Assembly (NCBI GenBank): GCA_046290225.1
Contig: JBKAGE010000074.1
Location: forward strand, 1-64,000
Origin: Bradymonadia bacterium
Lineage (GTDB): Bacteria > Myxococcota_A > Bradymonadia > UBA7976 > UBA1532
Direction of reading: 5' to 3'
DNA: 64,000 nt
A program made the position numbers. The stretch's first letter is position 1; each line of letters begins with the position of its first letter. Shown here piece by piece: positions 62,801 through 64,000 of the stretch.

Positions 62801-64000
62801 CAGGCTGAGCGCCATCAGCGAGGGCTGGCACTGTGCGGCCCTTGAGGCTCTGCTCCGCCTCGTCGTACCAGACGAGGCGGCCTTCGTCGTCGTCGGCGAG
62901 CACCGCGAGGTGCAGCGGATTGAAGTTGAGCGAGTCGTCGACGAAGATCTGACCCCCGCCACCGCCCGAACCACCTTCGCCACCGGCGCCGGCAGCACCA
63001 CCGCCTGCCCCTGCACCACCACCAGCGCCGGCTGCGCCACCACCACCTGCCATACCACCGGCACCGCCAGCACCAGCAGCACCACCGGCCCCACCAGCCC
63101 CAGCGCCGCCATCAGCGCCGCCGAAGCTCACGTCGGGCAACATGGCGGCATCTCGCAGCTCGCCGAAGTCGGGCAGAGGCTCGAGATCGACAGGGTCACT
63201 GGGGCTACAGGCGAAGAGGCCCAGCATCATCAACCCTGCGGGGAGGGCGGCCTGGGTCAGTCTGTGTCGGTGGCTCATGGGTCGGTGACCTCGTAGAAGC
63301 GTGTCAGTCCATCTTGGCTCGGTTTGTACACAATGTGACCGAGCCGAATCTATCACGGCGAAATATGCGCCATTTTTGATGTGTGGTTGCCTCGGTCCAC
63401 CTGGGGTGCCACCCTGTCACAGGGCGTCGAAGGTGGAGGCTCGAGATGCGGACCACACACATCGTCAGCATGGGCGCAGCGGTGGCGCTCACCGTCACAG
63501 CATGTGCTGCATCGGGCAGCAGGGCCGTCATCGGTGGCACCCTCGCTCTGGTGGTCATCGGCGTCGTGTGGGCGCTGCAGAAGAGAAACACCTCAGATGA
63601 TCGAGAAAAAAACCCTCGAGAGGCCCAATCGAAGCCTGCAGGCAGCCTAGTGCCACCCACGAGCACCAACAATGGCGCCTTCGATCCGTTGAAGGAGAGC
63701 GAGCGCCAGCTCAGAGAAGCACGCGCCGCCGACGGGCAGCCTGATCAGGAGAACCAGGGCGAGGATGGAAACGCTTCCTCGACGGACTCGGAAACTGGCA
63801 AAACCGCTGTCGTGCCCTCTGATGACCCTCAGGAGAAGCCCGGGAAGGTGGGCGACACTGACAAGGACAACCCCGATCAGGACAACCCCGACGAAGGTGA
63901 CGCTGGCCTGCCTGATGCGGAGCCACGTAAACCTCCACCGTTGATGCCGTGCCTCTCCATCCTCCCACCGAAGGATCCCCCCATCGGACCGTGCCTGAAG

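What a model noticed while it worked through the whole genome (the two positions that open the first line are those of the whole stretch)
63446..64000. GPCL-repeat lipoprotein precursors with two radical-SAM maturases: a conserved myxobacterial cassette
C74:63446-69079 holds an uncharacterised peptide/protein-modification cassette: g04947 (221 aa) and its paralogue g04943 (278 aa) have a lipoprotein-type signal (L-x-A-C), a membrane helix, then six copies of a short motif, typically (D/E)-[VIL]-G-P-C-L-[SDE], spaced by acidic, proline-rich linkers, and a conserved C-terminal helix (..LP.D[VI]..RL..). They flank g04946 (radical SAM/SPASM, the class that makes Cys thioether cross-links), g04945 (a B12-dependent radical SAM methylase fused to a protein isoaspartyl O-methyltransferase domain) and g04944 (262 aa, no family, conserved Q-[IV]-L-H-E-x-x-H-P motif, a likely zinc peptidase). 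The order precursor-SPASM-B12/PIMT-g04944 is kept across ma [...]
Evidence so far: Sequences and Pfam rows: PCL occurs >=4 times in only these two of 6372 proteins. No NCBIfam model reaches its cut for any of the five proteins, no hit at all for g04947 and g04944. g04945 homologues: 51 of 400 other phylum genomes at E<=1e-40, 25 of them aligned over >=610 of 742 residues at 54-65% identity. 12 such loci fetched: tblastn finds the SPASM enzyme directly upstream in 12 of 12 and g04944 downstream in 11 of 12; an ORF with signal/lipobox, 2-9 C-L motifs (52 of 110 Cys preceded by G-P, 78 followed by L) and the C-terminal LP.DV helix lies upstream in 12 of 12, in 4 loci as 2-3 tandem copies. H-E-x-x-H present in 11 of 11 g04944 homologues. 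Literature search radical SAM + isoaspa The finding spans contig positions 63446 to 69079; this window holds only 63446 to 64000 of it. [...]
(Added by a program. Inside this text positions count along the whole contig: contig position 1 is position 1 of the stretch shown here. "Call 12" and the like, gene names such as g00115 and contig names such as C1 are that model's own, and its searches are not shown. The text may have been shortened before it was handed on; [...] marks where a part breaks off. The agent that wrote the report below was given it as the finding of a first reader that could run no searches.)

Follow-up and report, generated by a model that had tools for sequence, protein, structure and literature searches.

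The report
Cysteine-repeat lipoproteins with radical-SAM maturation genes
The window ends in a gene for a membrane-anchored protein with repeated Gly-Pro-Cys-Leu units; this protein and a sister copy look like the substrates of a small, undescribed enzyme set found in many myxobacteria that probably modifies those cysteines chemically.

Summary
Window 63446-64000 is the first 185 codons of g04943 (278 aa). g04943 and g04947 are the only two of 73,876 open frames in the genome with four or more P-C-L. They flank g04946 (radical SAM with a full 7-Cys SPASM domain), g04945 (B12-binding radical SAM plus a PCMT-like domain) and g04944 (orphan HExxH protein).

In 34 related loci the SPASM gene lies upstream in 31 and g04944 downstream in 31. 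Five of the six misses are contig ends and one is a decayed copy. Substrate ORFs occur in 30 of 35 loci.

New here:
- The PCMT-like domain has lost its SAM-binding motif in this clade (0 of 31). It is intact in a sister clade (8 of 8).
- g04944 has a zincin-like fold with an invariant HExxH...E.
- A complex model (0.84, best control 0.09) docks g04944 on the substrate's C-terminal helix, with the last GPCL unit at the metal site.
- In other organisms g04944 is fused to the B12 enzyme.

The chemistry remains inferred. I found no description in print. I rate it a new variant of radical-SAM peptide or protein maturation.

The parts
63446..64000 (+). g04943, residues 1-185 of 278 (the gene runs to contig position 64282, beyond the window): substrate paralogue, convergent with the cassette. 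The other parts lie BEYOND THE WINDOW on the minus strand of the same contig (contig positions): g04944 64262-65050 (orphan zincin-like HExxH...E protein, modelled docking site for the substrate's C-terminal helix); g04945 65047 to about 67275 (B12-binding domain + radical SAM core + degenerate PCMT-like domain); g04946 67275-68414 (radical SAM/SPASM, 379 aa); g04947 68414-69079 (221-aa substrate with six [VL]-G-P-C-L units and the C-terminal helix).
   Evidence: ORFs and translations. g04943 is 36% identical over 144 aa to g04947, E 9e-11. g04944. g04945. g04946. g04947.
63446..63505 (+). N-terminal signal-like stretch of g04943 ending in V-T-A-C20 (lipobox-type Cys)
   Evidence: Sequence. 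A Cys after a hydrophobic stretch is present in 44 of 45 substrate ORFs.
63521..63577 (+). Second, Gly-rich hydrophobic segment of g04943 (residues 26-44), followed by Q-K-R-N
   Evidence: Sequence. The same two-segment N-terminus is seen in 12 of 45 substrate ORFs (my count).
63947..63958 (+). First P-C-L-S unit of g04943 (Cys169)
63986..64000 (+). Second unit G-P-C-L-K of g04943 (Cys183). Four more units and the C-terminal helix A-E-I-L-D-K-V-L-A-R-A-D-L-P-E-D-V-K-S-R-L lie beyond the window (to 64282).

Best explanation
The window holds the 5' part of one of two substrate genes of a four-gene post-translational maturation cassette. The gene order is substrate, SPASM radical-SAM enzyme, B12-binding radical-SAM enzyme, g04944.

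The substrates are proteins of 100-280 aa. Each has a lipoprotein-type N-terminus, a disordered Pro/Asp-rich stalk with 2-10 copies of the unit (D/E)-x-x-[VIL]-G-P-C-L-[SD]-P-P, and a C-terminal amphipathic helix (..[VI]L.R[VL]L....LP.D[VI]..RL).

Proposed course:
1. In the cytoplasm, g04944 (a zincin-like HExxH...E protein with no signal peptide) grips the C-terminal helix with its helical subdomain. It lays the neighbouring G-P-C-L unit along its edge strand and metal site. This step has model support.
2. g04944 works physically with the B12-binding radical-SAM enzyme. Support comes from natural fusion proteins.
3. The SPASM enzyme (three conserved Fe-S cysteine sets) and the B12 enzyme modify the P-C-L units. 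The most likely chemistry is a Cys-centred radical reaction, such as a thioether to a nearby residue, plus a methylation. This step is inferred from the enzyme classes only.
4. g04944 probably clips off the C-terminal 'follower' helix. This step is inferred.
5. The modified protein leaves by its own signal and is lipid-anchored. This step is inferred from the N-terminus and from the lack of any conserved transporter gene.

The PCMT-like domain of g04945 is a degenerate remnant in this clade and is not expected to methylate.
For: Synteny:
- SPASM is directly upstream in 31 of 34 loci and g04944 directly downstream in 31 of 34. Five of the six misses are contig ends; the sixth (L034, no SPASM) is a decayed copy.
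- Substrates occur in 30 of 35 loci, and in 30 of the 31 with enough flank.
- 28 of the 29 other phylum genomes with g04944 also have g04945. The two are on the same contig side by side in 27 (my count).
- No other gene family is shared by more than 9 of 35 loci.

Substrate motif:
- Of 194 C-L sites, G is at -2 in 148, P at -1 in 148, D/E at -6 in 113 and S/D at +2 in 132.
- Of 42 ORFs chosen only for >=2 PC[LIVM], 37 carry the tail motif, against 49 of all 2,062 ORFs.

Enzymes:
- CX3CX2C and seven SPASM cysteines are conserved in 38 of 38.
- g04946 aligns to PqqE over residues 26-352. Its fold is nearest SkfB, SuiB, anSME, CteB, TigE and PqqE, at TM 0.59-0.68.
- The B12-binding and Radical_SAM domains of g04945 score above the Pfam cut-offs.

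g04944:
- Model pLDDT 93. Zincin-type matches are YbeY Z 7.2, Wss1 6.0, and M1/thermolysin/neurotoxin light-chain folds 4.5-5.3.
- H191, E192 and E224 are invariant in 34 of 34 sequences across both clades.
- Complex model with the last 62 aa of g04947: score 0.84, best of 3 controls 0.09. That mark was reached by 116 of 157 solved complexes and 2 of 215 mismatched pairs. The runs share at least 54% of contacts and the partner's pLDDT is at least 62. My own alignments were used, so these counts hold only roughly. The tail helix touches residues 41-45, 63, 71-79 and 96-107. Tail residues L5, G6, C8, L9 and S10 touch 160-163, H191, E192, H195 and E224.
- No solved relative exists by sequence, so the pass is unlikely to come from memory.

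Fusions:
- P0031 and P0141 are B12 + Radical_SAM + PCMT + g04944-like.
- P0082 and P0116 are B12 + Radical_SAM + g04944-like with no PCMT.

Degenerate PCMT.
Against: - No product, mass shift or activity is known for any member. All the chemistry is inferred from enzyme superfamilies.
- The fold matches of g04944 (Z <= 7.2) lie in the range that unrelated models also reach (note). Foldseek found nothing at E <= 0.001. A shared fold does not show hydrolysis.
- In the sister clade the second His of HExxH is not conserved (0 of 6). The family as a whole is therefore not bound to a classical zincin site, and g04944 may only hold the substrate.
- Topology is unresolved. Both copies in this genome have a second hydrophobic segment after the lipobox Cys, which would put the stalk back in the cytoplasm if the first segment is cleaved. 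Only about 20 of 44 lipoboxes are canonical (my count).
- The complex model is a prediction with my own alignments.
- The tail alignment was built from ORFs picked partly by the tail motif, so its 'invariant L-P-x-D' is circular.
- Loci were found through close homologues of g04945, so they are kin and not independent samples.
Confidence: 0.55

Rival explanations
1. Multi-core RiPP. Each G-P-C-L unit is a separate core. After modification g04944 cuts the stalk at every unit and releases many copies of a short modified peptide. The N-terminal membrane anchor and the C-terminal helix serve only as handles. This is the logic proposed for the repeat precursors TvgA and TigB.
For: - Repeat number varies freely (2-10) and spacing is irregular, from 4 to 73 residues with a mode of 13. 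The units therefore behave as independent modules.
- The complex model puts a G-P-C-L unit, not the linker before the helix, at the metal site.
- Repeat-motif precursors with one SPASM enzyme are known. For TigB the authors suggest five identical products (PMC10878394, passages read).
Against: - No transporter is conserved in the loci.
- Nearly all substrates keep an export/lipidation-type N-terminus (44 of 45). That would be pointless for peptides cut free in the cytoplasm.
- The linkers between units are not conserved, so the products would not be identical.
- Only the unit next to the helix was in the modelled fragment.
Confidence: 0.17
2. g04944 is not a peptidase. It is the substrate-recognition subunit of the B12 enzyme, doing the job that PqqD-like RRE domains do elsewhere. 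Its metal site might hold or activate the Cys thiolate. Alternatively it is an Fe/alpha-ketoglutarate HExxH oxygenase, like the HExxH domains found next to radical-SAM enzymes.
For: - Neither radical-SAM enzyme has a recognition domain of its own. The g04946 radical-SAM core starts at residue 26.
- g04944-like domains are fused to the B12 enzyme.
- The sister clade keeps the protein but not the second His, as expected for a binding role.
- HExxH proteins beside radical-SAM enzymes have been shown to be alpha-ketoglutarate hydroxylases (PMC12636437, passages read). The ChlB HExxH domain 8s5f appears among the fold matches at Z 4.5.
Against: - H191, E192, H195, D199, H220 and E224 are invariant in all 28 tier-1 sequences. 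That is more constraint than a mere clamp needs, and HExxH...E is the gluzincin signature.
- The NCBIfam library as a whole gives no hit for g04944 at E <= 0.1. I recall TIGR04267 as the alpha-ketoglutarate HExxH model in that library but did not check that it is in this release.
- Zincin hydrolases score higher than 8s5f.
Confidence: 0.15
3. Protein maturation of the anSME or QhpD kind with a different Cys chemistry. The SPASM enzyme oxidises each Cys (for example to formylglycine or a thioaldehyde-derived group) on an unfolded export substrate before secretion, rather than forming thioether rings.
For: - g04946 has the size (379 aa) and the leaderless, RRE-less architecture of anSME. anSME structures are among its fold matches (TM 0.65-0.66).
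- The substrates are secretion-type proteins rather than short peptides.
- From recall: sulfatases are modified in the cytoplasm before export.
Against: - From recall, the sulfatase motif is C/S-x-P-x-R. Here the conserved context is G-P-C-L-[SD]-P.
- No NCBIfam model reaches its cut-off for g04946.
- A second radical enzyme and g04944 have no counterpart in sulfatase maturation.
Confidence: 0.08
4. The repeat proteins are not substrates. They are unrelated envelope proteins that merely neighbour a radical-SAM gene pair acting on something else.
For: No experiment links them. Low-complexity Pro/Asp-rich lipoproteins are common in myxobacteria (recalled, no call).
Against: - Co-location holds in 30 of 31 loci with enough flank, across several families of the phylum.
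- A sister clade with 30-40% identical enzymes again has P-C-L repeat ORFs next door (5 of 8 loci).
- P-C-L density is unique in the genome.
- Model support exists for g04944 binding the tail.
Confidence: 0.03

Closest known systems
Sactipeptide/ranthipeptide maturation by radical SAM/SPASM enzymes (SkfB, CteB; PapB with freyrasin's six Cys-X3-Asp units, the last recalled from memory)
   Same: A SPASM enzyme sits with a Cys-bearing substrate. In freyrasin one enzyme acts on a short unit repeated several times. An acidic residue lies near each Cys (D/E at -6 in 113 of 194 units). SkfB is the best sequence and fold match of g04946.
   Different: No family model reaches its cut-off and there is no RRE domain. 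The substrates are 100-280 aa with a lipoprotein-type N-terminus and a C-terminal rather than N-terminal recognition helix. A second (B12) radical enzyme and a zincin-like partner are obligatory. Thioether formation is untested.
Poly-cyclopropylglycine RiPPs (TvgA/TvgB, TigB/TigE; PMC10878394, passages read)
   Same: Precursors are built of a short repeated motif and modified unit by unit by a SPASM enzyme. The tig cluster also has two radical-SAM enzymes. TigE is among the fold matches (TM 0.62).
   Different: That paper describes a G-Y-W motif unique to the cyclopropyl synthases. It is absent from all 38 g04946 homologues. The conserved residues here are G-P-C-L, and position -3 varies (V 92, T 29, L 24, I 24 of 194).
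Protein-level SPASM maturation before export: anaerobic sulfatase-maturing enzyme, and QhpD on the QhpC subunit (mechanisms recalled from memory; anSME structures matched)
   Same: A cytoplasmic SPASM enzyme without RRE acts on Cys of a protein that is then exported. QhpD makes Cys-to-Asp/Glu thioethers.
   Different: The motifs differ. The substrate here is a disordered repeat stalk rather than an enzyme subunit. The extra B12 enzyme and the docking protein have no counterpart.
HExxH partners of radical-SAM enzymes (alpha-ketoglutarate HExxH hydroxylases ChlB-H, BpmH, PflC/PosC; PMC12636437 passages read; 8s5f)
   Same: An HExxH protein is encoded beside, or fused to, a radical-SAM RiPP enzyme and was long annotated as a metallopeptidase.
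   Different: g04944 has no NCBIfam hit at E <= 0.1. Its fold similarity to 8s5f is weak (Z 4.5), lower than to YbeY/Wss1-type zincins. It is fused to a B12-class rather than a SPASM-class enzyme.
RiPP-associated PIMT homologues that make aspartimide (lasso peptides, graspetides, imiditides, pamtides; titles and abstracts seen in the listing only)
   Same: A PCMT-fold domain sits in a peptide-maturation gene set. The sister clade keeps T-[IV]-S-A-x-H-A-Y, G-x-G-x-G and the acidic residue (8 of 8), so it may really methylate.
   Different: Here the domain is fused to a B12 radical-SAM enzyme. In the clade of this genome it has lost the SAM-binding motif (0 of 31). The listing shows zero occurrences of 'radical SAM' in the pamtide paper and in the 2026 aspartimide review.

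Membership tests
Radical SAM / SPASM subfamily (g04946) | CX3CX2C cluster motif | tested here: met
   C32, C36 and C39 are conserved in 38 of 38 homologues. Pfam Radical_SAM scores 95 bits against a cut-off of 29.5.
Radical SAM / SPASM subfamily (g04946) | C-terminal seven-Cys SPASM signature (CX9-15GX4C ... CX2CX5CX3C ... plus an upstream Cys; the form of the signature is recalled) | tested here: met
   C251, C266, C286, C321, C324, C330 and C334 are conserved in 38 of 38. The spacing C266-x19-C286 is longer than the recalled consensus. The protein aligns to PqqE over residues 26-352. The Pfam SPASM model itself was not among the hits at E <= 0.1.
Radical SAM / SPASM subfamily (g04946) | Membership of a named NCBIfam equivalog (sactipeptide, PqqE, mycofactocin, anSME and others) | tested here: not met
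   The best is NirJ2 at 93.6 bits against a cut-off of 500. None of the 67 families reaches its cut-off.
Class B (B12-binding) radical SAM enzymes (g04945) | N-terminal B12-binding domain followed by a radical SAM core with CX3CX2C | tested here: met
   PF02310 scores 39.2 bits (cut-off 32.1) and PF04055 62.1 bits. C-V-Y-H-C-T-F-C lies in a fully conserved block in 31 sequences. No NCBIfam equivalog reaches its cut-off.
Protein-L-isoaspartate O-methyltransferase (PCMT, PF01135) (g04945 C-terminal domain) | Pfam model above the gathering score | tested here: met
   46.8 bits against a cut-off of 20.3, residues 515-685. The domain aligns to E. coli Pcm 3lbf over chain residues 4-207.
Protein-L-isoaspartate O-methyltransferase (PCMT, PF01135) (g04945 C-terminal domain) | SAM-binding motif I (E/D-x-G-x-G-x-G), the acidic residue after beta-2 and the T-I-S substrate-binding motif (roles recalled; positions taken from the alignments to solved PIMTs) | tested here: not met
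   The G-x-G-x-G motif is kept in 0 of 31 tier-1 sequences (typical V-A-D-x-T-A-R-S-G-Y). By inspection of the same alignment the T-I-S motif and the acidic residue are also gone, and six homologues lack 20 or more residues after beta-2. The sister clade keeps all three features in 8 of 8.
Gluzincin-type metallopeptidase (g04944) | HExxH plus a downstream Glu as third ligand | tested here: met
   H191-E192-x-x-H195 and E224 are invariant in 28 of 28. H191, E192 and E224 are invariant in 34 of 34 including the sister clade, but H195 is not kept there.
Gluzincin-type metallopeptidase (g04944) | Zincin fold (mixed sheet with an edge strand beside the HExxH helix) | tested here: inconclusive
   VIA-align gives YbeY Z 7.2 (rmsd 3.2, 120 aligned), Wss1 6.0, and LTA4 hydrolase, aminopeptidase N and thermolysin 4.5-5.3. 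All are in the range unrelated models can reach. Foldseek found nothing at E <= 0.001. Atlas structure neighbours include DUF4932 (TM 0.68) and M61 peptidases (0.47).
Gluzincin-type metallopeptidase (g04944) | Sequence membership of a curated peptidase family; hydrolytic activity | tested here: not met
   There is no Pfam or NCBIfam hit and no PDB relative by profile (best E 0.44). Activity cannot be tested with these tools.
alpha-Ketoglutarate HExxH hydroxylases (IPR026337, named in PMC12636437) | Match to the family's sequence model; fold of 8s5f | tested here: inconclusive
   There is no NCBIfam hit at E <= 0.1 for g04944. I did not check that the family's model (recalled as TIGR04267) is in that release. 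8s5f matches at Z 4.5, rmsd 4.6, 156 aligned.
Bacterial lipoprotein precursor | Positively charged N-terminus, hydrophobic stretch, lipobox [LVI][ASTVI][GAS]-C (consensus recalled) | tested here: met
   g04947 has M-K-R-F-H...L-T-A-C25 and g04943 has ...V-T-A-C20. Of 45 substrate ORFs, 44 have a Cys 13-39 residues from the start after a hydrophobic stretch, and about 20 of the 44 fit the strict consensus (my count). No signal-peptide predictor was available.
Bacterial lipoprotein precursor | Cleavage by signal peptidase II and lipidation | not testable with these tools
   This needs globomycin or palmitate-labelling experiments. The second hydrophobic segment in 12 of 45 ORFs leaves the topology open.
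Radical SAM cyclopropyl synthases (TvgB/TigE) | G-Y-W motif whose Tyr ligates auxiliary cluster I (PMC10878394) | tested here: not met
   G-Y-W is present in 0 of 38 g04946 homologues.
RiPP (ribosomally synthesised, post-translationally modified peptide) gene cluster | A precursor with a recognition sequence (leader or follower) distinct from the modified core, encoded beside its tailoring enzymes | tested here: inconclusive
   The follower-like helix is conserved and is modelled in contact with g04944. Enzymes and substrates are co-located. Whether a peptide is released, or the whole protein is the product, is unknown.

The most novel reading that the evidence does not exclude
A previously unrecognised class of lipid-anchored envelope proteins in Myxococcota. 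Their proline-rich stalk carries up to ten radical-SAM-installed modifications on G-P-C-L units. Maturation happens in the cytoplasm on a C-terminal 'follower' helix, which is read by a new zincin-like docking protease that is the recognition subunit of a B12 radical-SAM enzyme. A sister clade does the same job with an N-terminal twin-arginine-like leader helix, an active PIMT domain and a metal-site-deficient docking protein. The two clades would thus show a maturation system swapping which of its modules is catalytic.
Probability: 0.3. Interest if true: 0.82.

Novelty: new variant of a known kind. Interest (0 to 1): 0.7.

Why it matters
Radical-SAM maturation is well known for short secreted peptides and for a few enzyme subunits. 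Here the same logic seems to be applied to membrane-anchored repeat proteins, with three parts that have no described counterpart:
- a follower helix at the C-terminus;
- an orphan zincin-like protein that reads the helix and is fused to the B12 enzyme in some organisms;
- a PIMT domain caught between active (sister clade) and decayed (this clade).

The family is not small. It has 402 representative clusters for the g04944 family alone and is found in 29 of 400 other sampled genomes of the phylum. It occurs in one cultured strain (Paraliomyxa miuraensis, L005), so it can be tested.

A defined short target (G-P-C-L) modified many times per chain would be a convenient system for finding new Cys or Leu/Pro radical chemistry. 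It would also help show how cytoplasmic modification is coupled to lipoprotein export.

Tried and rejected
- Family libraries. Pfam and NCBIfam gave nothing for the substrates or for g04944. The weak PspM/Rv2743c row for g04943 (E 0.0015-0.03) covers only the hydrophobic N-terminus and was dismissed.
- Solved structures. A PDB profile search with the g04944 alignment gave only chance rows. Foldseek found no match at E <= 0.001.
- Earlier findings. Look-ups by place, by two sequences and by words returned nothing.
- YbeY and isoaspartate. YbeY is the top fold match, and a 2026 preprint (10.64898/2026.08.26.747336, abstract read) reports that YbeY forms isoaspartate. That would be tempting beside a PIMT-like domain, but Z 7.2 is within the noise range. 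I keep it only as a lead.
- Cyclopropyl synthase reading. Rejected because the G-Y-W motif is absent.
- Other P-C-L-rich frames in the genome (C38, C75). These are Arg-rich off-frame ORFs.
- A canonical Pcm from the same genome as a reference. None scores higher than g04945 itself, so I used the solved PIMTs shown instead.
- SPASM fold search. It does not discriminate between chemistries.
- Conserved neighbours. A search for a conserved transporter, regulator or further enzyme around the cassette found nothing shared by more than 9 of 35 loci.
- Literature. Seven searches found no paper describing this cassette, the B12-radical-SAM/PIMT fusion or the repeat proteins. An eighth search was aimed at HExxH hydroxylases. 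Subscription journals, MIBiG, antiSMASH and RadicalSAM.org were not searchable here.
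Full report
WHAT IS IN THE WINDOW

Window 63446-64000 is the first 185 codons of a plus-strand ORF that continues to contig position 64282 (g04943, 278 aa). The window is the first 64 kb of a 71.6-kb contig (C74) of an 8.58-Mb genome with 64% G+C.

The window piece encodes:
- a short N-terminus and a hydrophobic stretch ending V-T-A-C20;
- a second hydrophobic segment (residues 26-44);
- a long acidic linker;
- the first two of six C-L units (Cys169 at 63950-63952, Cys183 at 63992-63994).

The rest of the finding lies beyond the window on the minus strand. It comprises g04947 (221 aa, six [VL]-G-P-C-L units), g04946, g04945 and g04944, whose 3' end overlaps that of g04943 by 21 bases. 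The two repeat proteins are paralogues at 36% identity over 144 aa, E 9e-11.

IS IT MORE THAN CHANCE?

Of 73,876 stop-to-stop frames of 60 aa or more in all six frames of the genome, only these two hold four or more P-C-L (4 and 6). The few frames with three are Arg-rich off-frame ORFs or a 2644-aa protein. A genome-wide scan for frames with at least two C-L and the tail motif returns only these two.

THE ENZYMES

g04946 (379 aa) is a radical-SAM enzyme. Its CX3CX2C motif and seven further cysteines in SPASM arrangement are conserved in 38 of 38 homologues. It aligns to PqqE over residues 26-352 and best to the thioether-forming SkfB. Its model (pLDDT 88) matches SkfB, SuiB, anSME, CteB, TigE and PqqE about equally, at TM 0.59-0.68. 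No NCBIfam model comes near its cut-off. The core starts at residue 26, so there is no N-terminal peptide-recognition domain.

g04945 has a B12-binding domain, a radical-SAM core and a PCMT-fold domain by Pfam. The 742-aa coordinates begin on a non-start codon, so the real start is probably a few codons in.

THE PCMT-LIKE DOMAIN IS DEGENERATE HERE

Aligned to solved PIMTs and across 31 homologues, the first 480 residues are highly conserved and the PCMT-like part is not. None of the 31 sequences keeps the G-x-G-x-G of the SAM-binding motif; the typical sequence is V-A-D-x-T-A-R-S-G-Y. By inspection of the same alignment the T-I-S motif and the acidic residue after strand 2 are also gone. Six homologues lack 20 or more residues there. 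The only well-kept piece is G-P-R-F-R-P-Q-D-L. I therefore read this domain as a remnant, not as an O-methyltransferase.

CONSERVATION OF THE CASSETTE

A scan of one genome per species found 34 loci with a close g04945 homologue. All come from Myxococcota-type MAGs plus the cultured Paraliomyxa miuraensis.
- The SPASM gene lies directly upstream in 31 of 34. The misses are two contig ends and one decayed copy, L034, whose B12 gene is frameshifted.
- g04944 lies directly downstream in 31 of 34. All three misses are contig ends.
- ORFs with the repeat are present in 30 of 35 loci counting L001. Four of the five misses lack upstream sequence.
- Substrates often come as two or three tandem copies, and in L013 and L032 they sit downstream instead.
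- No further gene family is shared by more than 9 of 35 loci, so there is no conserved transporter.

In 400 other genomes of the phylum:
- g04944 is found in 29;
- g04945 at E <= 1e-40 is found in 51;
- 28 of the 29 have both, side by side on one contig in 27 (my count from the two tables).

THE SUBSTRATE MOTIF

Over 194 C-L sites in 45 ORFs, G is at -2 in 148, P at -1 in 148, D/E at -6 in 113, V/I/L at -3 in 140 and S/D at +2 in 132, followed by prolines. Spacing between units is irregular, from 4 to 73 residues with a mode of 13.

The C-terminal helix ([VI]L.R[VL]L....LP.D[VI]..RL) was part of my selection rule for those 45 ORFs, so its invariance in alignment A3 is circular. As an independent check, 37 of 42 ORFs chosen only for at least two PC[LIVM] carry the helix, against 49 of all 2,062 ORFs of the loci.

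At the N-terminus, 44 of 45 have a Cys 13-39 residues from the start after a hydrophobic stretch. About 20 fit the strict lipobox. There are two forms:
- a short form, M-D-L-K-R-L-P-P-S-L-L-V-A-L-G-L-A-G-C;
- the form of this genome (12 ORFs), where a Gly-rich hydrophobic segment and a second motif [TS]-Q-[TSA]-[GA]-C follow.

g04944

g04944 has no Pfam, NCBIfam or PDB relative by sequence. Its 23 word-indexed homologues are all unnamed. A full profile scan finds 402 representative clusters at E <= 0.001.

The model is confident (pLDDT 93, pTM 0.91). Foldseek finds nothing at E <= 0.001. The exhaustive aligner lists zincin-type folds first:
- YbeY Z 7.2;
- Wss1 6.0;
- neurotoxin light chains, LTA4 hydrolase and aminopeptidase N about 5.2;
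- thermolysin 4.5;
- the alpha-ketoglutarate HExxH domain 8s5f 4.5.

These values are in the range that unrelated models reach, so the fold is suggestive only. Atlas structure neighbours are unnamed proteins of Gemmatimonadota and Bacillota (TM 0.77-0.80), DUF4932 and M61 peptidases. H191-E-x-x-H195, D199, H220 and E224 are invariant in 28 of 28. HExxH...E is the gluzincin pattern.

BINDING TEST

I folded g04944 (alignment A1) with the last 62 residues of g04947 (alignment A3).
- The model supports binding; it does not show it. The score was 0.84 and the best of 3 controls 0.09.
- That mark was reached by 116 of 157 solved complexes and 2 of 215 mismatched pairs.
- The runs agree in at least 54% of contacts and the partner's pLDDT is at least 62.
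- My own alignments were used, so the counts hold only roughly.

The helix (tail residues 36-61) lies on residues 41-45, 63, 71-79 and 96-107 of g04944. Tail residues L5, G6, C8, L9 and S10, which are the last G-P-C-L-S unit, touch the strand 160-163 and H191, E192, H195 and E224. This is the way zincins hold a substrate. It argues that g04944 reads the follower helix and acts on, or presents, the adjacent unit.

FUSIONS

Among the profile hits:
- P0031 (987 aa) and P0141 (970 aa) are B12 + Radical_SAM + PCMT + g04944-like in one chain.
- P0082 (750 aa) and P0116 (726 aa) are B12 + Radical_SAM + g04944-like with no PCMT domain and an intact HExxH.

The first pair could be read-through gene calls. 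The second pair cannot be, because a whole domain is missing. This links g04944 to the B12 enzyme and shows that the PCMT-like domain is dispensable.

A SISTER CASSETTE

The g04945 matches fall into two tiers.
- The 51-65% tier is the cassette above.
- A 34-40% tier of about 18 genomes from other families has no g04944 match with the single sequence.

I fetched eight of these loci, chosen for good scores and long contigs rather than at random.
- All eight have a SPASM gene (30-34% identical) directly upstream.
- Five have ORFs with P-[QTR]-P-C-L-[SDK] repeats. Their N-terminus reads D-D-D-x-D-R-A-A-I-L-A-R-R-x-x-F-[IV]-A-x-A-L...A-C, that is an acidic run, a helix and a twin-arginine-like signal with a lipobox-type Cys. 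They have no C-terminal helix.
- Six have a conserved ORF beside or convergent with the enzymes. It is a remote homologue of g04944 (hhalign probability 96%, E 4.5e-9, 210 columns). It keeps H191, E192 and E224 but not H195.
- Their PCMT domains keep T-[IV]-S-A-x-H-A-Y, L-D-L-G-x-G-[ST]-G-Y-G and the acidic residue in 8 of 8.

The two clades are therefore reciprocal. One has an active-looking PIMT, an incomplete metal site and an N-terminal helix. The other has a dead PIMT, a complete HExxH and a C-terminal helix. One reading is that a C-terminal follower has to be cut off by a peptidase, whereas an N-terminal one leaves with the signal peptide. A twin-arginine-type signal would also fit a protein that is finished in the cytoplasm before export. 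Both points are inference.

MECHANISM, WITH ITS STATUS

Shown by sequence:
- the gene set, the motifs and the conserved cluster cysteines;
- the loss of the PIMT motifs;
- the co-occurrence and the fusions.

Supported by a model:
- g04944 holds the follower helix and the adjacent G-P-C-L unit.

Inferred:
- the SPASM and B12 enzymes modify the P-C-L units in the cytoplasm;
- g04944 removes the follower;
- the product is exported and lipid-anchored.

The chemistry is open. A Cys thioether to a nearby residue is the commonest outcome for Cys substrates of SPASM enzymes, and D/E at -6 is a candidate partner. B12 radical-SAM enzymes mostly methylate carbon, but ThnL makes a thioether (PMC9407657, title and abstract seen in the listing). 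The cyclopropyl-synthase reading is excluded by the absent G-Y-W motif.

NOVELTY

Seven full-text searches found no paper on this cassette, the fusion or the repeat proteins. An eighth was aimed at HExxH hydroxylases. The listing shows that the pamtide paper and the 2026 aspartimide review never use the words 'radical SAM'. Subscription journals, MIBiG, antiSMASH and RadicalSAM.org could not be consulted.

The general kind, radical-SAM maturation of a repeat-bearing precursor, is known (TvgA/TigB, freyrasin, QhpC). The lipoprotein-type substrates, the C-terminal follower, the zincin-like reader fused to a B12 enzyme and the decaying PIMT domain are new variations on it.

Noticed in passing
L041-L048 (G125, G275, G300, G230, G285, G210, G380, G305): A sister cassette in other families of the phylum. 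It has SPASM plus a B12-radical-SAM::PIMT with intact methyltransferase motifs, P-Q-P-C-L repeat ORFs with an N-terminal D-R-A-A-I-L-A-R-R-x-x-F twin-arginine-like signal, and a remote g04944 homologue that lacks the second His of HExxH.
   Followed up: partly
P0082, P0116, P0031, P0141: Natural fusion proteins join the B12 radical-SAM enzyme to a g04944-like domain. Two of them have no PCMT-like domain at all.
   Followed up: partly
L034:6908-9535: A decayed copy of the cassette in a 3.4-Mb contig. The B12 gene is split over two frames and lacks its B12-binding part. No SPASM gene and no repeat ORF are present, but the g04944 homologue is still open.
   Followed up: partly
G000 whole genome: The best PF01135 (PCMT) match in this 99%-complete genome is g04945 itself (49.8 bits). 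The next is 38.7 bits on C34. No canonical, strongly scoring protein-repair Pcm was seen.
   Followed up: no
window 60525-63356 (-): The divergent neighbour is a 943-aa ORF (917 aa from the likely Met). It has a lipoprotein-type start (..L-G-L-F-A-C-S), an about 70-aa Gly/Ala run and no Pfam match.
   Followed up: partly
window 59075-60484 (-): A sigma-54-dependent response regulator (Response_reg + Sigma54_activat + HTH_8) lies two genes from the finding. No link to the cassette was tested.
   Followed up: no
L001:8417-9079 (-) and 11 other substrate ORFs: In the two-segment substrates the second hydrophobic stretch always ends in [TS]-Q-[TSA]-[GA]-C. This is a second conserved Cys motif of unknown meaning.
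   Followed up: no
L027:5609-5917 (+): This is the third tandem substrate copy in its locus. It has no hydrophobic N-terminus at all (M-G-K-K-S-D-R-P-P-P-F-V-G-P-C-L...), two units, the usual tail helix and a Lys-rich end.
   Followed up: no
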